32,858 nt of DNA from a virus (Duplodnaviria > Heunggongvirae > Uroviricota > Caudoviricetes): IMG/VR virus record IMGVR_UViG_2802429238_000001. One strand, given 5' to 3'. Numbering within the stretch: the first letter of the stretch is position 1; every line of letters begins with the position of its first letter. Positions 4,657-12,282 of the stretch are shown in pieces. The notes below the pieces were generated by a model, which was not told the DNA's origin, searched no databases, and was given only the letters and a program-made list of their open reading frames with translations. Position numbers and translations under genes: made by a program.

Positions 4657-4928
4657 GTATTCGTATTGAAATTGGCGAACGTTATGTCGTTACCAGTGAC
4701 AGCTTTCAGTTTATTCTCCACGAGAAAAAGAGAGCGGAAAGCGGTAAAAACGCCGGTCAGGAATGGCTGGCGGTGGTTGGTTATTACCCGAAATTAAGCC
4801 AGCTCGTTTCCGGCCTGATGCATCACGATATTCTGACCGGAAGCGCAAAGTCTTTTGCTGATTTAAACGCGCAGGTTGAGCAACTCAGCAAGCGTTGTTC
4901 AGAGGCTTTTGGCTCATATGGCCGTTAA
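4653..4928 (+). CDS. Hypothetical early-operon protein
   Basis: 91 codons; ATGA overlap upstream; 3' end overlaps the A start by 11 nt. Confidence 0.55.
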   Translation: MSIRIEIGERYVVTSDSFQFILHEKKRAESGKNAGQEWLAVVGYYPKLSQLVSGLMHHDILTGSAKSFADLNAQVEQLSKRCSEAFGSYGR

Positions 4929-7203
4929 AGCCTCCGGGCGTTTTGTCCCTCCGTCAGCATTTGCCGCAGGCACCGGTGAGACGTTTACCGGTGCTTATGC
5001 ATGGAACGCGCCACGCGAGGCCGTCGGGCGCGAAAGACCCCTTACACGTGACGAGATGCGTCAGGTGCAAGGTGTTTTATCCACGATTAATCGCCTGCCT
5101 TACTTTTTGCGCTCGCTGTTTACTTCACGCTATGACTACATCCGGCGCAATAAAAGCCCGGTGCACGGGTTTTATTTCCTCACATCCACTTTTCAGCGTC
5201 GTTTATGGCCGCGCATTGAGCGCGTGAATCAGCGCCATGAAATGAACACCGACGCGTCGTTGCTGTTTCTGGCAGAGCGCGACCAGTATGCGCGCCTGCC
5301 GGGAATGAATGACAAGGAGCTGAAAAAGTTTGCCGCCCGTATCTCATCGCAGCTTTTCATGATGTATGAGGAACTCAGCGATGCCTGGGTGGATGCGCAT
5401 GGCGAAAAAGAATCGCTGTTTACGGATGAGGCGCAGGATCACCTGTATGGTCATGTTGCTGGCGCTGCACGTGCTTTCAATATTTCCCCTCTCTACTGGA
5501 AAAAATACCGTAAAGGACAGATAACCACGAGGCAGGCATATTCTGCCATTGCCCGTCTGTTTAACGATGAGTGGTGGACTCATCAGCTTAAAGGCCAGCG
5601 TATGCGCTGGCATGAGGCGTTACTGATTGCTGTCGGGGAGGTCAATAAAGACCGTTCTCCTTATGCCAGTAAACATGCCATTCGTGATGTGCGTGCGCGC
5701 CGCCAGGCAAATCTGGAATTTCTTAAATCGTGTGACCTTGAAAACAGGGAAACCGGCGAGCGCATCGACCTTATCAGTAAGGTGATGGGCAGTATTTCTA
5801 ATCCTGAAATTCGCCGGATGGAGCTGATGAACACCATTGCCGGTATTGAGCGTTACGCCGCCGCAGAGGGCGATGTGGGCATGTTTATCACGCTGACCGC
5901 GCCGTCAAAGTATCACCCGACACGTCAGGTCGGAAAAGGCGAAAGTAAAACCGTCCAGCTAAATCACGGCTGGAATGATGAGGCATTTAATCCAAAGGAT
6001 GCGCAGCGTTATCTCTGCCGTATCTGGAGCCTGATGCGCACGGCATTCAAGGATAATGATTTACAGGTCTACGGTTTGCGAGTCGTCGAGCCACACCACG
6101 ACGGAACGCCGCACTGGCATATGATGCTTTTTTGTAATCCACGCCAGCGTAATCAGATTATCGAAATCATGCGTCGCTATGCGCTCAAAGAGGATGGTGA
6201 CGAAAGAGGAGCCGCGCGAAACCGTTTTCAGGCAAAGCACCTTAACCGGGGCGGTGCTGCGGGATATATCGCGAAATACATTTCAAAAAATATCGACGGC
6301 TATGCACTGGATGGTCAGCTCGATAACGATACCGGCAGACCTCTGAAAGATACTGCCGCGGCTGTTACTGCATGGGCGTCAACGTGGCGCATCCCGCAAT
6401 TTAAAACGGTTGGTCTGCCGACAATGGGGGCTTACCGTGAACTACGCAAATTGCCTCGCGGCGTCAGCATTGCTGATGAGTTTGACGAACGCGTCGAGGC
6501 TGCACGCGCTGCCGCAGACAGTGGCGATTTTGCGTTGTATATCAGTGCGCAGGGTGGGGCAAATGTCCCGCGCGATTGTCAGACTGTCAGGGTCGCCCGT
6601 AGCCCGTCGGATGACGTTAACGAGTACGAGGAAGAAGTCGAGAGAGTGGTCGGCATTTACGCGCCGCATCTCGGCGCGCGTCATATTCATATCACCAGAA
6701 CCACGGACTGGCGCATTGTGCCGAAAGTGCCGGTCGTTGAGCCTTTGACTTTAAAAAGCGGCATCGCCGCGCCTCGGAGTCCTGTCAATAACTGTGGAAA
6801 ACTCACCGGTGGTGATACTTCGTTACCGGCTCCCACACCTTCTGAGCACGCCGCAGCAGTGCTTAATCTGGTTGATGACGGTGTTATCGAATGGAGTGAC
6901 CCGGAGGTCGTGAGGGCGCTCAGAGGTGCATTAAAACACGGTCGGAGAACGCCAAGTCGTCAGCAAAGAAACGGAAGCCCGTTAAAACCACATGAAATTG
7001 CACCATCGGCCAGACTGACCCGGTCGGAAAGAATGCAAATTACCCGTATCCGCGTTGACCTTGCTCAGAAGGGTATCAGGCCGCAGCGATGGGAGCTTGA
7101 GGCGCTGGCGCGTGGCGCGACCGTAAATTATGACGGGAAAAAATTCACGTATCCGGTCGCTGATGAGTGGCCGGGATTCTTAACAGTAATGGAGTGGACA
7201 TAA
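4918..7203 (+). CDS. A: Rolling-circle replication initiator (HUH endonuclease), P2 A family
   Basis: 761 aa from ATG 4918 (MAVKASGRF..; the track ORF begins upstream at 4876). Size and sequence match the P2 A protein; contains a HWHMM motif consistent with a HUH active site. Confidence 0.9.
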   Translation: MAVKASGRFVPPSAFAAGTGETFTGAYAWNAPREAVGRERPLTRDEMRQVQGVLSTINRLPYFLRSLFTSRYDYIRRNKSPVHGFYFLTSTFQRRLWPRIERVNQRHEMNTDASLLFLAERDQYARLPGMNDKELKKFAARISSQLFMMYEELSDAWVDAHGEKESLFTDEAQDHLYGHVAGAARAFNISPLYWKKYRKGQITTRQAYSAIARLFNDEWWTHQLKGQRMRWHEALLIAVGEVNKDRSPYASKHAIRDVRARRQANLEFLKSCDLENRETGERIDLISKVMGSISNPEIRRMELMNTIAGIERYAAAEGDVGMFITLTAPSKYHPTRQVGKGESKTVQLNHGWNDEAFNPKDAQRYLCRIWSLMRTAFKDNDLQVYGLRVVEPHHDGTPHWHMMLFCNPRQRNQIIEIMRRYALKEDGDERGAARNRFQAKHLNRGGAAGYIAKYISKNIDGYALDGQLDNDTGRPLKDTAAAVTAWASTWRIPQFKTVGLPTMGAYRELRKLPRGVSIADEFDERVEAARAAADSGDFALYISAQGGANVPRDCQTVRVARSPSDDVNEYEEEVERVVGIYAPHLGARHIHITRTTDWRIVPKVPVVEPLTLKSGIAAPRSPVNNCGKLTGGDTSLPAPTPSEHAAAVLNLVDDGVIEWSDPEVVRALRGALKHGRRTPSRQQRNGSPLKPHEIAPSARLTRSERMQITRIRVDLAQKGIRPQRWELEALARGATVNYDGKKFTYPVADEWPGFLTVMEWT

Positions 7204-7480: not shown

Positions 7481-8676
<1,196 letters not shown>

Positions 8677-8854
8677 TTAGTGCGCGTGGTCTGGTATTTA
8701 GAATTAATCATGAAATTATGCATCAGCTCGGCCTTGCTATTATGTATGAACCAGATACGGGGCTGTCTGGTGGGGCAATGGTTGCTGTGGATGGGATGTG
8801 GAACTATTCAGATGAACAGATGGAGCGTGCACAGCAAAACGGGTGGCCTGGATA

Positions 8855-9061
8855 ATGCACAAAATACCAAGCGAGATACCGCACCATAAAACTAAAAATA
8901 TCAAGCTGATGGCTATTGTTCAGCGTTTACAGCGGATTATGGTCAACGAAAATCTGACGCCCGATGAGCTAGTCGGGTGTGCCGAAATAGTCCGGGATAA
9001 TTACGGGCGGTTTAACCATATCGGTCAATCAAGAGTTACGCCACCACCACGCAGACGATAG
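8855..9061 (+). CDS. Small hypothetical protein (68 aa), basic C-terminus
   Basis: ATG 8855 overlaps the stop of the interrupted upstream gene (TAATG); the track ORF is extended to GTG 8843. No family recognised. Confidence 0.45.
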   Translation: MHKIPSEIPHHKTKNIKLMAIVQRLQRIMVNENLTPDELVGCAEIVRDNYGRFNHIGQSRVTPPPRRR

Positions 9062-9185
9062 AGAACGCCGCCAGTCGTGAAACTTGTTTTCAGGGCTGGC
9101 GGGGTTGAACAACGAGCGAAGCGAGGCGTTAGTTGACAGTCATATTTTTACTGCGTTGGTGCTGGTTTTTGACGGTTGAAAGGAG

Positions 9186-9249
9186 TTAGCTCGGAGAGCT
9201 AAAGCTAACAACTTACAAATATTCAAAAGTAAGCTTCCTGTTGCTAACA
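9186..9249. promoter_or_regulatory. Hairpin and repeated GCTAAC motifs upstream of the cargo genes
   Basis: TTAGCTC (9186-9192) / GAGCTAA (9196-9202) inverted repeat with a 3-nt loop; GCTAACA at 9204-9210 and 9243-9249; lies in the 229-bp gap before the first cargo gene. Confidence 0.35.
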
Positions 9250-9290
9250 TAAGGTCGATTTTTTATGTGGATGATGCAAAAAGGATAGCT

Positions 9291-10022
9291 ATGGATATTG
9301 TAATCGCTTTTCTATCACTCGCTTTTTTCGTTGCTTTTTTCATCGGGTTAATCAAGCCATCACTGGTGCGGATGCCAAACCGTAAACGTGCAAGTGCGGT
9401 TTATCTCGGAGGTGGTTTTGCATTGAGCATAATTGGTTCAATACTCTACCCAACAGAAAAAAGCCAGCCAGTTGCTAAAACTGAAACAGCAACCGTAGCA
9501 GAACACCAGGCTCAAAAAACATTCGAATATACTGAAAAAACACTCAAGGAATATCGGAACGAGCCAAAGAAGACTCGACACGATATTGTGAATAGTTACA
9601 TTAACTTTAAGAAAGTGCCAGTCACCGCATCAGATGCATTTTATGCCTGCATGAGTGAGTATACATTTACCAAAGATGATGAGTTGAAACTCGGTGATGT
9701 TCTTGGATGGTGCTTTAATGATTATGAAAAAGATCCGAAATCACTAAACAATAAAATCAACCTTGATACATTTCAGAGTAATTTTAGTGGTTGGGATGGT
9801 TCTTATCGACCATTGGAAAAGTTAATTAAAGAGAATATGAACGATGATTCATCTTATAAACATGTGTCAACAGTGTATCATTTAATCCTGAATAAAGACC
9901 CTCATGCTATAGTGAAAACCACATTTCGCGGTACTAATGCCTATGGTGGTGTCGTGAAGCAAACAATTGCAGCGCGTGTTAATGTGAAAACGGGTGAAAT
10001 AGTTTCGATACTAAATAATTGA
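9291..10022 (+). CDS. Predicted membrane protein (two N-terminal TM helices plus ~190-aa soluble domain), cargo gene 1
   Basis: 243 aa from ATG 9291 with AGGA RBS 5 nt upstream (track ORF starts at GTG 9267). Hydrophobic segments IVIAFLSLAFFVAFFIGLI and AVYLGGGFALSIIGSILY; AT-rich; no family recognised. Confidence 0.7.
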   Translation: MDIVIAFLSLAFFVAFFIGLIKPSLVRMPNRKRASAVYLGGGFALSIIGSILYPTEKSQPVAKTETATVAEHQAQKTFEYTEKTLKEYRNEPKKTRHDIVNSYINFKKVPVTASDAFYACMSEYTFTKDDELKLGDVLGWCFNDYEKDPKSLNNKINLDTFQSNFSGWDGSYRPLEKLIKENMNDDSSYKHVSTVYHLILNKDPHAIVKTTFRGTNAYGGVVKQTIAARVNVKTGEIVSILNN

Positions 10023-10026
10023 AGGT

Positions 10027-10066
10027 GATGCCACCGATACTGAAGTTTGATATTGTGTCGGTGGCA
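10027..10066 (+). terminator. Hairpin after cargo gene 1 (no clear U-tract)
   Basis: ATGCCACCGA ... TCGGTGGCAT 10-bp inverted repeat just after the stop codon; followed by an AT-rich leader. Confidence 0.3.
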
Positions 10067-10218
10067 TTGAAAGATGATCTTAAAGCATGTCTATTTTTTG
10101 TTTTGCATGATTTTTTTTTGATGTGTTGTTTTGTTTGTAATTAGAGTGCTTGATGATTTAAATTTCTTTTAGATGTTGTGTGAAAATATTGTGATTTTCT
10201 ATATCAAGGATTTGTTTC

Positions 10219-10917
10219 ATGAAGTATTGTGGGATAGCTTTAATAATATGTCTTTGCTTGTTTATGTTCGCATTTGGTTTTGTGTTGGGCGGAGTTCAAT
10301 GGGCATGGAGCGAGAGTGAAAATAATAGCAAGGTCGCATTTTGGACAATGCTAGGAGGGTGGGTGTCAGGATTGGCTACTCTCGCGGCTGTGGGGGTTTC
10401 ATTATTTACAAGTTATTATGCGATGATGTTAGGCAAAGAGAAAGTTGACGTTGTTTTTGCGCCTATATATACGACCTCTACGGCAAAAAAAGCAGATAAG
10501 CTTTCATCGCAAGATTTGGCTAATATCAAAGTGACAAATTTACACGGTGTGAAGTGTACTATTGTTAATGTTTATATGAAGTTTAGTGATGTTAAGGAAC
10601 CATTAAAGATTAATAACCTTAAACAGGGCGGTAAGCCCATTCCTTATACGCTATGTAATATAAGCGATATGTGGGAGTTTGCATTTGGGATGGAGTCAAA
10701 CCCTAGATTGAGATTTCTATTGTCAGGGTTGAAATATGAAGGTCGACCATCCTTTAAAAAAGGGTATTTCATCATTGAGACAGCAATGAAACAATACAAG
10801 TTAAAGATGCGGAAAGACTTTCTCTCAATATTACAGAGTGAGTATCAAAGCATAGAGGAAGAATCTAAACGTAACTCAGTTAAATCAGGGTGGTCACGGT
10901 ATAAAAAACAGAATTAA
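10219..10917 (+). CDS. Predicted membrane protein (two N-terminal TM helices plus ~160-aa soluble domain), cargo gene 2
   Basis: 232 aa; AGGA RBS 8 nt upstream of ATG; hydrophobic segments GIALIICLCLFMFAFGFVLGGV and WTMLGGWVSGLATLAAVGVSLF; very AT-rich; no family recognised. Confidence 0.7.
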   Translation: MKYCGIALIICLCLFMFAFGFVLGGVQWAWSESENNSKVAFWTMLGGWVSGLATLAAVGVSLFTSYYAMMLGKEKVDVVFAPIYTTSTAKKADKLSSQDLANIKVTNLHGVKCTIVNVYMKFSDVKEPLKINNLKQGGKPIPYTLCNISDMWEFAFGMESNPRLRFLLSGLKYEGRPSFKKGYFIIETAMKQYKLKMRKDFLSILQSEYQSIEEESKRNSVKSGWSRYKKQN

Positions 10918-11059
10918 TTACCTAATCAGTTATCGTGCATACACAATATGCATGGATTTGCATGCGCAAGCAGCATTCACATTGGTTGTTTTAGTTCAGG
11001 ACTGGTGCTGTTTCGACGTGTTCATGCAACTGCATTAAAACAGCCCCACGAAGCGGGCG

Positions 11060-11078
11060 GGCGAGGCGGGGAAAGCAC
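11060..11078. other. cos site (19-nt cohesive end sequence of P2-type phages)
   Basis: GGCGAGGCGGGGAAAGCAC at 11060-11078 matches the P2 cohesive-end sequence as I recall it; located between the cargo region and Q as in P2. Confidence 0.8.
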
Positions 11079-11219
11079 TGCGCGCTGGCGGTGGTGCTGA
11101 TTTTATTTTTTCAGCGTCTGAGCGCGTCGTGAAGGCGTTTACTTGGCCTGCTGGGGCGTTGGTGTGTCTGCGGGATTTTTTGTGCGGTGATGAGCGTATG
11201 AGGGCGTGATGACGGGGTG

Positions 11220-11242
11220 TAAAAAAGCCGCCCGCAGGCGGC
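11220..11242 (-). terminator. Rho-independent terminator downstream of Q
   Basis: On the minus strand: GCCGCC-tgcg-GGCGGC stem-loop followed by TTTTTT, 5 nt after the Q stop. Confidence 0.75.
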
Positions 11243-11247
11243 GATGT

Positions 11248-12282
11248 TCAGCCGTTGTCAGTGTCCAGTGAGTAGTTTTTAAAGCGGATGACTTCCTGGC
11301 CGAGCCAGCCGTTTATCTCGCGAATCCTGTCCTGTAACGGGATAAGCTCATTGCGGACAAAGACCTTTGCTACTTTCTCAATATCTCCCAGTGACCCGAC
11401 GTTCTCCGGCTTGCCGCCCATCAACTGAAAGGGGATGCGGTGTGCGTCCAGCAGGTCAGCGGCGCTGGCTTTTTTGATATTAAAAAAATCGTCCTTCGTT
11501 GCCACTTCACTGAGTGGGATAATTTTAATGCCGTCAGCTTTCCCCTGCGGGGCATAGAGAAACAGGTTTTTAAAGTTGTTGCGGCCTTTCGACTTCACCA
11601 TGTTTTCGCGAAGCATTTCGATATCGTTGCGATCCTGCACGGCATCGGTGACGTACATGATGTATCCGGCATGTGCGCCGTTTTCGTAATACTTGCGGCG
11701 GAACAGCGTGGCCGACTCATTCAGCCAGGCAGAGTTAAGGGCGCTGAGATATTCCGGCAGGCCGTACAACTCCTGATTAATATCCGGCTCCAGCAGGTGA
11801 AACACGGAGCCGGGCGCGAAGGCTGTCGGCTCGTTGAAGGACGGCACCCACCAGTAAACATCCTCTTCCACACCACGGCGGGTATATTTTGCCGGTGAGG
11901 TTTCCAGTCTGATGACCTTACCGGTGGTGCTGTAACGCTTTTCCAGAAACGCATTACCGAACACCAGAAAATCCAGCACAAAGCGGCTGAAATCCTGCTG
12001 AGAAAGCCACGGATGCGGAATAAACGTTGAAGCCAGAATATTGCGTTTAACGTAAATCGGCGAGCTGTGATGCACGGCAGCACGCAGGCTTTTTGCCAGA
12101 CCGGTAAAGCTGACCGGCGGCTCATACCATCTGCCGTTACTGATGCACTCGACGTAATCCAGAATGTCACGGCGGTCGAGTACCGGCACCGGCTCGCCAA
12201 AGGTGAATGCCTCCATTTTCGGGGCGCTGGCGGTGATTGTTTTTGCCGCAGGTCGCGGTGTTTTCCCTTTTTTCTTGCTCAT
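11248..12282 (-). CDS. Q: Portal protein, P2 gpQ family
   Basis: 344 aa, same size as P2 Q; ATGA overlap with the P stop; synteny. Confidence 0.9.
   Translation of the reverse strand: MSKKKGKTPRPAAKTITASAPKMEAFTFGEPVPVLDRRDILDYVECISNGRWYEPPVSFTGLAKSLRAAVHHSSPIYVKRNILASTFIPHPWLSQQDFSRFVLDFLVFGNAFLEKRYSTTGKVIRLETSPAKYTRRGVEEDVYWWVPSFNEPTAFAPGSVFHLLEPDINQELYGLPEYLSALNSAWLNESATLFRRKYYENGAHAGYIMYVTDAVQDRNDIEMLRENMVKSKGRNNFKNLFLYAPQGKADGIKIIPLSEVATKDDFFNIKKASAADLLDAHRIPFQLMGGKPENVGSLGDIEKVAKVFVRNELIPLQDRIREINGWLGQEVIRFKNYSLDTDNG

What the first reader, a model, noticed from the sequence alone, without database searches (positions are those of the whole stretch)
9062..10917. AT-rich pair of two-TM membrane proteins occupies the P2 tin/old cargo hotspot: candidate uncharacterised defence or exclusion module
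Seen in sequence: between the replication gene A and cos, exactly where P2 carries tin and old, this prophage has two co-oriented genes (9291-10022, 243 aa; 10219-10917, 232 aa) that are conspicuously AT-rich relative to the phage backbone. Each encodes two N-terminal hydrophobic helices followed by a 160-190 residue soluble domain with no motif I can recognise (no nuclease, ATPase, TIR, Sir2 or toxin signature). They sit behind their own 229-bp leader with a hairpin and repeats. Established knowledge: this position in P2-like phages is a recognised hotspot for anti-phage systems. Inference: the pair is a horizontally acquired moron, plausibly a membrane-acting abortive-infection or superinfection-exclusion system. 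I could not run a homology search, so novelty is not established.
Basis: partly seen in the sequence, partly recalled or inferred. Interest (0 to 1): 0.85.

Follow-up and report, generated by a model that had tools for sequence, protein, structure and literature searches.

The report
Two independent phage membrane-protein cargo genes
The two AT-rich genes are real, but they are two separately exchangeable single-gene cassettes rather than a pair: the first is the long-known coliphage 186 gene orf97, recorded as blocking 186 infection when expressed from a plasmid, and the second belongs to an unstudied family of prophage membrane proteins whose anti-phage role is only suggested by where it sits.

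Summary
ORF1 (9291-10022, 243 aa) and ORF2 (10219-10917, 232 aa) lie between gene A and cos, in the lowest-GC stretch of the window (0.38 against 0.52). Each has two N-terminal TM helices and matches nothing in Pfam, NCBIfam or PADLOC.

The interpretation needs correcting.
- ORF1 is not new. It is the orthologue (about 80% identity) of coliphage 186 Orf97, whose GenBank note reads "expression from plasmid blocks 186 infection". Rousset 2022 lists it as P2-hotspot system no. 12 ("2 TM", 210 occurrences), and its sequence is in none of their cloned constructs.
- The genes are not an obligate pair. Of 85 distinct orf97 loci, 59 lack an ORF2 relative. ORF2 relatives occur without orf97 in E. coli, Citrobacter, Enterobacter and Serratia P2-like prophages. 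The two proteins' divergences are almost uncorrelated, and shared homology stops at the orf97 stop codon.

Likely mechanisms:
- Orf97 probably anchors in the inner membrane and presents a disulfide-containing, HdeA/Tai4-like domain to the periplasm. This fits superinfection exclusion at the envelope.
- ORF2 has a conserved TM helix, a hypervariable and probably cytoplasmic beta-sandwich, and a C-terminal helix. It sits in a slot that elsewhere holds AbiP2. An exclusion or abortive-infection role is plausible but untested.

The parts
9064..9132 (+). Conserved ~70-bp GC-rich hairpin element at the left edge of the hotspot. It is probably a junction or terminator element that brackets cassettes.
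   Evidence: The hairpin at 9064-9106 folds at -28.8 kcal/mol with z -5.5. The element occurs once in P2, Wphi and Yersinia P2-like phages. A second copy lies immediately downstream of orf97 in 186, BIS20, S164, L013, L014, L036, L053 and L102.
9135..9290 (+). Leader specific to the P2-type orf97 cassette. It carries an AAAGGA ribosome-binding site 6 nt before the ATG. Its promoter is not identified.
   Evidence: The leader is about 95% conserved among 12 P2-type orf97 loci. Only its last ~60 nt align with the 186 tum-orf97 spacer around t95a. It has no LexA box and no sigma-70 consensus match within it.
9291..10022 (+). ORF1, the orf97 orthologue (243 aa). Predicted layout: TM1 (1-21), a conserved basic cytoplasmic loop (22-36), TM2 (37-53), a disordered linker (54-77), and a periplasmic domain (78-243) with invariant Cys120 and Cys141.
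10024..10218 (+). Start of the second cassette. It contains a strong hairpin at 10027-10068 directly after the ORF1 stop, followed by a 30%-GC, T-rich spacer that probably carries ORF2's own promoter.
   Evidence: The hairpin folds at -23.7 kcal/mol with z -6.1. Homology to other P2-type orf97 loci ends at 10018-10032. GC is 0.30.
10219..10917 (+). ORF2 (232 aa), a phrog_16957 family member. Predicted layout: a TM hairpin (about 4-27 and 39-68, the second helix carrying the conserved MLGGWVSGxATxAAV motif), a beta-sandwich (76-196) and a long C-terminal helix (199-231).
10918..11017 (+). Right end of the ORF2 cassette. Backbone homology with other P2-like phages resumes at 11014-11024, just before cos.
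   Evidence: blastn against 19 related loci. The cos sequence lies at about 11056-11078.
7481..8676 (+). IS5 insertion that interrupts the DUF3850/ASCH gene upstream of the cargo. It is context and not part of the cassettes.
   Evidence: The IS5 transposase spans 7549-8529. The terminal inverted repeats are at 7481 and 8665-8676, and uninterrupted homologues in L003 and L014 join across the gap.

Best explanation
The region holds two independent single-gene cargo cassettes of the cos-proximal P2/186 hotspot. It is not a two-gene system.

Cassette 1 (about 9135-10023) is orf97, the orthologue of the second gene of coliphage 186's SOS operon.
- Shown: orthology; wide conservation across Enterobacterales P2/186-like prophages; and the depositor's record that plasmid expression of 186 Orf97 blocks 186 infection.
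- Inferred: the protein inserts in the inner membrane with a short N-terminus outside. A conserved basic loop (KPSLVRMPNRKRxSA) faces the cytoplasm. A roughly 165-residue C-terminal domain faces the periplasm, stabilised by a Cys120-Cys141 disulfide. Its helical half resembles the periplasmic HdeA, YmgD, Rap1a and Tai4 proteins.
- Proposed action: from that position it most likely blocks an envelope step of infection by P2/186-type phages, meaning genome or tail-tip passage through the periplasm and inner membrane. That would be classical superinfection exclusion.
- Regulation: in 186-type phages the gene is made on SOS induction, downstream of tum. In this P2-type phage tum and the LexA box are absent and a different conserved leader is present, so regulation differs and is unknown.

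Cassette 2 (about 10024-11017) is ORF2, a member of an uncharacterised family of prophage accessory ('moron') genes.
- Anatomy: a conserved glycine-rich TM helix, a hypervariable beta-sandwich that is probably cytoplasmic, and a C-terminal helix.
- Inferred from context only: it is a self-contained membrane-acting exclusion or abortive-infection protein. The variable domain would recognise a phage component and the conserved helix would act in the membrane.
For: Orf97 identity and phenotype:
- 79.6% identity by tblastn to 186 orf97.
- The GenBank U32222 note reads 'expression from plasmid blocks 186 infection', and the operon is annotated p95(LexA)-tum-t95a-orf97-t95b.
- 158 homologue clusters were found, the 120 listed at 51-96% identity in Escherichia, Klebsiella, Serratia, Yersinia, Pectobacterium and Photorhabdus.
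- The gene region is present in 261 of 5426 complete E. coli genomes.

Orf97 topology and fold:
- The loop between the TM helices averages 4.7 Lys+Arg and no acidic residues. Two cysteines are invariant across 40 sequences.
- The C-domain is modelled with high confidence.

Independence of the two genes:
- An ORF2-family gene follows orf97 in only 26 of 85 distinct loci. The other loci carry unrelated genes there, including an AbiP2 reverse transcriptase and PDC-S31, or nothing.
- ORF2 relatives occur alone in the A-to-cos slot in Citrobacter, Serratia, E. coli, Enterobacter and a metagenomic P2-like prophage.
- Orf97 identity (76-100%) and ORF2 identity (18-100%) are almost uncorrelated, with Spearman 0.18.
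- Homology with other orf97 loci ends at 10018-10032 and resumes at 11014-11024.
- A strong hairpin and a 196-bp spacer separate the two genes.

ORF2 as accessory cargo:
- Distant relatives sit in classic accessory-gene positions: after the lysis cassette and before terminase in lambdoid prophages, beside an integrase, between portal and capsid genes, and in a Vibrio chromosomal array of small genes.
- The TM helix is conserved (median 60%) while the sandwich is hypervariable (median 18%).
- Basic residues directly follow the conserved helix in single-TM relatives, which points to a cytoplasmic C-domain.
Against: - No experiment on this allele was available.
- The Orf97 phenotype comes from a database note on plasmid expression. 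Overproducing a membrane protein could block infection non-specifically.
- Topology and the disulfide are predictions.
- No promoter was identified for either gene. AT-rich cargo is often silenced in E. coli, so expression in the lysogen is unproven.
- ORF2 has no defence-database match (PADLOC), no informative structural neighbour and no reported phenotype.
- An ORF2-family gene follows orf97 in 31% of loci, in both tum+ and tum- lineages, once with only an 8-bp gap (L083). Some functional cooperation therefore cannot be excluded.
Confidence: 0.6

Rival explanations
1. The two genes form one obligate two-gene defence or exclusion system transcribed from the 229-bp leader.
For: The genes are adjacent and co-oriented. 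ORF2-family genes lie directly downstream of orf97 in 26 of 85 loci, in both 186-type and P2-type lineages, once with only an 8-bp gap. All 7 complete E. coli genomes with this ORF2 allele also carry orf97. All 9 P2/186-like IMG/VR loci found with the ORF2 profile have orf97 upstream.
Against: orf97 occurs without ORF2 in 59 of 85 loci, including phage 186 itself, where the phenotype was recorded. ORF2 relatives occur without orf97 in five P2-like contexts and in lambdoid prophages. Divergence is uncorrelated. A recombination boundary falls exactly at the orf97 stop. A strong hairpin and a 196-bp spacer lie between the genes.
Confidence: 0.1
2. Orf97 does not exclude other phages. It serves the phage's own induction or lytic programme as the partner of the antirepressor Tum in the SOS operon, for example by conditioning the envelope after induction. 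On this view the reported block of 186 infection is a side effect.
For: In 55 of 85 loci orf97 lies directly downstream of tum. In 186 it is transcribed from the LexA-repressed p95 promoter through the partial terminator t95a. One paper describes tum and orf97 together as the induction system (PMC5322425).
Against: P2-type phages keep orf97 (91-96% identical among themselves) without tum or a LexA box and with a separately conserved leader. This argues for a function independent of induction. From memory, not from a tool result, Tum alone is the antirepressor (Shearwin et al. 1998). The only recorded phenotype of Orf97 is a block of infection.
Confidence: 0.13
3. One or both genes are lysogenic-conversion factors that benefit the host envelope, for example through acid or periplasmic stress tolerance or serum resistance. 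They would not be anti-phage functions.
For: The best structural neighbours of the Orf97 periplasmic domain are the acid-stress chaperones HdeA and HdeB and the periplasmic protein YmgD. From memory, the lambdoid slot after the lysis genes, where ORF2 relatives sit, also holds host-benefit genes such as lambda bor. Rousset et al. note that the P2 hotspot also carries non-defence cargo, such as partition systems and cytolethal distending toxin.
Against: The structural similarity is weak and covers only part of the domain. The recorded Orf97 phenotype is a block of infection. The hypervariable ORF2 soluble domain beside a conserved TM helix fits an arms race better than housekeeping protection. 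The same slot carries AbiP2.
Confidence: 0.12
4. ORF2-family proteins are lysis-associated membrane regulators, such as antiholin-like or lysis-timing factors, rather than defence proteins.
For: Single-TM relatives lie immediately downstream of holin, endolysin and spanin genes, in the same orientation, in three lambdoid prophage lineages. The architecture is a TM helix plus a cytoplasmic domain.
Against: In P2/186-like phages the gene is far from the lysis cassette and sits in the early-side cargo hotspot. It is dispensable, being absent from most P2/186 relatives. It also occurs beside an integrase, between portal and capsid genes, and in a non-phage Vibrio array.
Confidence: 0.07

Closest known systems
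Coliphage 186 Orf97 (GenBank AAC34191, second gene of the p95 SOS operon; Brumby et al. 1996 as cited)
   Same: ORF1 is its orthologue. Identity is 79.6% over residues 19-243, and both are 243 aa with the same two-TM-plus-domain layout. Both sit directly before cos, after gene A.
   Different: In the window there is no tum, no LexA box and no p95. A different, conserved 156-bp leader replaces them. GC is 0.38 against 0.46 in 186. Another cargo gene follows it here, whereas in 186 nothing does.
Rousset et al. 2022 P2-hotspot catalogue, Table S5B system no. 12 ('2 TM', 210 occurrences)
   Same: It is the same protein family, with a listed sequence about 91% identical to ORF1. The full arrangement DUF3850/ASCH + hypothetical + WP_077150726 + WP_077150727 is listed in Table S5A.
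   Different: It is catalogued only. The sequence appears in none of the cloned or tested constructs. It carries no name, domain or function.
Envelope-level superinfection-exclusion proteins (T4 Imm and Spackle, P22 SieA, P1 Sim, HK97 gp15)
   Same: These are small phage-encoded inner-membrane or periplasmic proteins that stop genome entry of related phages. Orf97's predicted topology and recorded phenotype fit this mode of action. The properties of these comparators are from memory and from the titles and abstracts listed.
HdeA/HdeB, YmgD, and the T6SS amidase immunity proteins Rap1a and Tai4 (periplasmic helical proteins)
   Different: Sequence identity is 3-18%. Orf97 is membrane-anchored and has an extra helix plus a four-stranded sheet (173-241). 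Nothing shows chaperone or amidase-inhibitor activity.
P2 tin and old, and AbiP2 (known occupants of the same hotspot)
   Same: They occupy the same genomic slot between gene A/orf91 and cos. AbiP2 replaces ORF2 downstream of orf97 in locus L075.
   Different: No homology. Neither window protein matched any nuclease, ATPase or reverse-transcriptase family in Pfam or PADLOC, whereas AbiP2 is a reverse transcriptase. The window proteins are membrane proteins without enzymatic motifs.

Membership tests
Coliphage 186 Orf97 family (phrog_3403) | Full-length sequence homology to 186 Orf97 | tested here: met
   tblastn gives 79.6% identity at E 9e-122. The phrog_3403 match has E 1.2e-144 over the whole profile.
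Coliphage 186 Orf97 family (phrog_3403) | Position at the right end of a P2/186-type genome, between the replication gene A and cos | tested here: met
   Gene A is 4876-7203, the cos sequence is at about 11056-11078, and the portal gene is 11248-12282. The same position is seen in the surveyed loci that retain gene A and portal flanks.
Coliphage 186 Orf97 family (phrog_3403) | Membership of the LexA-controlled SOS operon with tum | tested here: not met
   No tum homologue is present in the window. No LexA box with up to one mismatch lies in 9062-9290. 30 of 85 loci share this tum-less arrangement. This is a feature of the 186 operon, not of the protein family.
Coliphage 186 Orf97 family (phrog_3403) | Blocks 186 infection when expressed | not testable with these tools
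   Known only from the depositor's note for the 186 protein. This allele has not been tested.
Known superinfection-exclusion protein families in Pfam (for example SieB, T4 Imm) | Profile match to a curated exclusion or immunity family | tested here: not met
   The Pfam scan at E up to 1 gave no family for ORF1 and only a spurious tRNA_Me_trans hit below cut-off for ORF2. PHROGs matches are all 'unknown function'.
Known anti-phage defence systems (PADLOC-DB v2) | Match of either protein to a defence-system model | tested here: not met
   No families matched ORF1 or ORF2 at E up to 1.
Two-gene defence system (obligate partners) | The genes co-occur and co-vary across genomes | tested here: not met
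   59 of 85 orf97 loci lack ORF2. ORF2 relatives occur alone in five P2-like contexts. Spearman correlation of identities is 0.18.
HdeA-like / Tai4-Rap1a-like periplasmic helical proteins | Compact helical fold shared with HdeA, HdeB, YmgD, Rap1a and Tai4, with a conserved disulfide and a periplasmic location | tested here: inconclusive
phrog_16957 (ORF2 family) | Profile match and shared architecture: a conserved MLGGWVSG-type TM helix followed by a beta-sandwich | tested here: met
   The profile match has E 7.9e-52. Alignments A2 and A4 show the shared architecture. The family's function is unknown.

The most novel reading that the evidence does not exclude
The ORF2 superfamily could be an unrecognised, widespread family of single-gene membrane anti-phage effectors. 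It has 129 clusters at 50% identity, and members were found in P2/186-like and lambdoid prophages, other viral contigs, and a Vibrio chromosomal gene array. On this reading, a hypervariable cytoplasmic beta-sandwich senses a phage component. The conserved glycine-rich TM helix then oligomerises to breach or depolarise the inner membrane. In parallel, Orf97 would be the first exclusion protein shown to act through an HdeA/Tai4-like periplasmic domain.
Probability: 0.25. Interest if true: 0.65.

Novelty: new member of a known kind. Interest (0 to 1): 0.42.

Why it matters
Orf97 is one of the commonest occupants of the P2/186 cargo hotspot. It is in about 5% of complete E. coli genomes and is no. 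12 in Rousset's catalogue. It has had a recorded infection-blocking phenotype since the 1990s, yet it has no mechanism and is absent from defence databases. The predicted topology, the disulfide pair and the periplasmic fold now give concrete experiments.

Separating it from ORF2 avoids a wrong two-gene model. It also marks ORF2's family as a distinct candidate for testing: it has a conserved TM helix and a hypervariable soluble domain, and it recurs in accessory-gene slots of unrelated prophages.

If neither gene protects against phage, the result still matters. It would warn against reading every AT-rich hotspot gene as defence.

Tried and rejected
- Pfam, NCBIfam and PADLOC scans of both proteins found nothing significant.
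- Profile searches against PDB sequences found nothing.
- The BFVD Foldseek search for ORF2 gave TM-scores of 0.2-0.4 to uncharacterised proteins.
- The AlphaFold-database search (afdb50) was unavailable.
- A LexA box in the leader was searched for and is absent.
- The sigma-70 scan gave no site within 9062-9290 or 10023-10218, and fewer sites across 8700-11300 than in shuffled sequence. I could not assign promoters.
- Rfam found nothing meaningful in 8700-11300.
- The leader palindrome at 9186-9202 was considered as an operator. I rejected this because half of the alleles delete 6 bp of it.
- A lipoprotein signal in ORF2 (Cys13) was considered. I rejected it because, on inspecting alignment A2, the residues before the Cys do not fit a lipobox.
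- Brumby et al. 1996 could not be retrieved. The Orf97 phenotype therefore rests on the GenBank note alone.
Full report
**1. Observation**

The window carries a P2-type prophage. Gene A is at 4876-7203 and the portal gene at 11248-12282 on the minus strand. The string ggcgaggcggggaaagcac, which I recognise from memory as the P2 cos sequence, lies at about 11056-11078.

Between A and cos lie four features:
- A DUF3850/ASCH gene split by an IS5 copy at about 7481-8676.
- A conserved 72-aa ORF at 8843-9061 (phrog_11386).
- ORF1, 9291-10022, 243 aa.
- ORF2, 10219-10917, 232 aa.

GC is 0.38 for both genes and 0.30 for the spacer between them, against 0.523 for the window. The twelve lowest-GC 700-bp windows of the whole sequence all start between 9451 and 10101. 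Both proteins have two N-terminal hydrophobic helices. Neither has a significant Pfam, NCBIfam or PADLOC match.

**2. ORF1 is orf97 of coliphage 186**

- ORF1 matches phrog_3403 over its full length (E 1e-144).
- By tblastn it is 79.6% identical to the gene annotated orf97 in phage 186 (U32222/NC_001317).
- The 186 record places orf97 as the second gene of the SOS operon: p95 promoter with a LexA site, then tum, the partial terminator t95a, orf97, and t95b. It annotates the product 'expression from plasmid blocks 186 infection'.
- I could not retrieve the primary paper (Brumby et al. 1996, Virology 219:105, cited in PMC5322425). The phenotype therefore rests on the depositor's note.
- The family is widespread. 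158 clusters were found in Escherichia, Klebsiella, Enterobacter, Serratia, Yersinia, Pectobacterium and Photorhabdus, all named 'hypothetical'. More distant relatives occur in Vibrio phage VHML and in Aeromonas and Helicobacter phages.
- The gene region is present in 261 of 5426 complete E. coli genomes.
- Rousset et al. 2022 list this protein as system no. 12 of the E. coli P2 hotspot, with 210 occurrences and the comment '2 TM'. They also list the exact window arrangement in Table S5A. The sequence is in none of their cloned constructs.

**3. The two genes are separate cassettes**

I surveyed 85 distinct orf97 loci drawn from the window, GenBank phages, E. coli genomes and IMG/VR.
- 55 loci have tum upstream (186 type) and 30 do not (P2 type, like the window).
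- Downstream of orf97, 26 loci carry an ORF2-family gene.
- The rest carry unrelated genes of 172-518 aa or nothing. These include an AbiP2 reverse transcriptase (E 3e-162) and a PDC-S31/DUF2971 protein.

ORF2 relatives also occupy the A-to-cos slot without orf97. This is seen in Citrobacter, Serratia, E. coli and Enterobacter prophages, and in a metagenomic prophage where the relative lies one gene downstream of a SocA_Panacea gene.

Among 27 distinct orf97+ORF2 pairs, Orf97 identity ranges from 76 to 100% and ORF2 identity from 18 to 100%. The correlation is weak (Spearman 0.18). For example, L014 and L015 have Orf97 94-96% identical to the window's, but ORF2 only 37-38% identical.

blastn shows that homology with other P2-type orf97 loci runs from 8800 to 10018-10032, which is the orf97 stop, and resumes at 11014-11024. 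A strong hairpin (10027-10068, -23.7 kcal/mol, z -6.1) and a 30%-GC spacer separate the genes.

The unit of exchange is therefore the single gene. An obligate pair is unlikely. ORF2-family genes do follow orf97 fairly often (31% of loci), so looser cooperation cannot be excluded.

**4. The leader**

Copies of the same element also lie directly after orf97 in 186, BIS20, S164 and several prophages. It behaves as a junction element between cassettes and is not a regulatory part of this gene.

The remainder of the leader (9135-9290) is about 95% conserved among P2-type orf97 loci. Only its last ~60 nt align with the 186 tum-orf97 spacer. It has no LexA box and no consensus sigma-70 promoter. The palindrome at 9186-9202 loses 6 bp in half of the alleles. 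Expression in the lysogen is therefore unresolved.

**5. What Orf97 probably does**

- Alignment of 40 homologues shows a strongly conserved N-terminal TM hairpin. Its connecting loop (KPSLVRMPNRKRxSA) averages 4.7 basic and no acidic residues. After a variable linker comes a conserved ~165-residue domain with two invariant cysteines, C120 and C141.
- By the positive-inside rule the loop is cytoplasmic and the domain periplasmic. An invariant Cys pair fits an oxidising compartment.
- AlphaFold models the domain with pLDDT above 90. It has a helical half (85-163) followed by a helix and a four-stranded sheet (173-241).
- The scores are modest and I treat this as a resemblance only.

Combined with the recorded block of 186 infection, the most economical model is superinfection exclusion in the envelope. 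Orf97 would interfere with passage of the tail tip or genome through the periplasm or inner membrane. This is the mode of action I recall for T4 Imm/Spackle, P22 SieA and P1 Sim. I put this at about 0.55-0.6.

In 186-type phages the protein would be made on SOS induction. In the P2-type context it has a different, uncharacterised control.

**6. What ORF2 probably does**

- The close family is small: 19 clusters, matching phrog_16957.
- An exhaustive profile search finds 129 clusters at 50% identity. Many of these are 175-190-aa proteins that begin directly with the conserved helix (W..GxWxxGxGT..AV..SL) followed by basic residues. This suggests an N-out, C-in orientation.
- For the two-TM ORF2, that places the soluble domain in the cytoplasm.
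- AlphaFold (pLDDT 78.6) gives a TM hairpin, a beta-sandwich (76-196) and a long C-terminal helix.
- Structural neighbours are generic Ig-like domains.
- Across 29 P2/186-associated family members, the conserved helix has median 60% pairwise identity. The sandwich has 18%.
- Relatives occupy accessory-gene slots of unrelated temperate phages. These are after holin-endolysin-spanin and before terminase in Enterobacter, Klebsiella and Serratia lambdoid prophages; beside an integrase; and between portal and capsid genes. They also occur in a Vibrio chromosomal array of small genes.

This pattern describes a self-sufficient accessory gene with a conserved membrane part and a diversifying recognition part, in slots shared with AbiP2. 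It is what one expects of an exclusion or abortive-infection protein, but nothing here demonstrates it. I put an anti-phage role at about 0.4. Lysis-associated and host-benefit roles remain open.

**7. Comparison and novelty**

- ORF1 is a member of the known 186 Orf97 family. Sequence and position were tested and met, SOS-operon membership was not met, and the phenotype is not testable here.
- ORF1 works like, but is not a member of, the known exclusion families, since it has no profile match.
- ORF2 is a member of an unnamed family with no characterised relative.
- The locus as a whole is a new member of a known kind, namely prophage hotspot cargo encoding membrane exclusion-type proteins. 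It is not a new system.
- Specialist interest is moderate. The gap is real, because this is an abundant gene with an old phenotype and no mechanism, and the structural predictions make it testable. The 'novel two-gene defence module' reading does not hold.

**8. Verdict**

- Interest is 0.42.
- The most novel reading still open is that the ORF2 superfamily is a new widespread single-gene membrane defence family. I give this a probability of about 0.25.

Noticed in passing
window 7481-8676 (IS5); L003 7174-8142: An IS5 copy splits the DUF3850/ASCH gene (the P2 orf91 equivalent) just upstream of the cargo. In E. coli E94 and E92, a different IS5 insertion lies between orf97 and ORF2. That makes two independent IS5 hits in the same AT-rich locus.
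   Followed up: partly
window 9064-9132; also L009 3187-3255, L010 3692-3761, L014 4476-4555, L036 4747-4815: A ~70-bp GC-rich hairpin element (-28.8 kcal/mol) marks the left edge of the hotspot in P2-like phages. In many loci it recurs immediately after orf97. It looks like a junction or recombination element bracketing cargo cassettes.
   Followed up: partly
L110 7001-7531, L111-L113 7001-7534, L114-L115 7001-7558: Single-TM relatives of ORF2 sit directly after the holin-endolysin-spanin genes and before terminase in lambdoid prophages of Enterobacter, Klebsiella and Serratia. This is a second, unrelated cos/terminase-proximal cargo slot.
   Followed up: partly
L116/L117 7001-7597 (Vibrio neptunius chromosome): An ORF2-superfamily gene lies in a chromosomal array of small, widely spaced genes alongside acetyltransferases and an IS. 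The array resembles a superintegron cassette array. attC sites were not checked.
   Followed up: no
L075 4783-6339 (-), L102 4767-5672, L121 2394-2864: The slot downstream of orf97 holds an AbiP2 reverse transcriptase in L075 and a PDC-S31/DUF2971 protein in L102. In L121 an ORF2 homologue lies one gene downstream of a SocA_Panacea (toxin-antitoxin antitoxin domain) gene.
   Followed up: partly
window 8843-9061: A conserved 72-aa ORF (phrog_11386, E 1e-37) follows the DUF3850 gene. RefSeq annotates it as hypothetical in related prophages, and its function is unknown. It belongs to the conserved backbone rather than the variable cargo.
   Followed up: no
L002 5054-5752 (Peduovirus P22H4): The GenBank record annotates only a 89-aa ORF (5483-5752) downstream of 'Orf97'. 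A full 232-aa ORF2-family reading frame is present there, so the deposited record appears to have under-called the gene.
   Followed up: no
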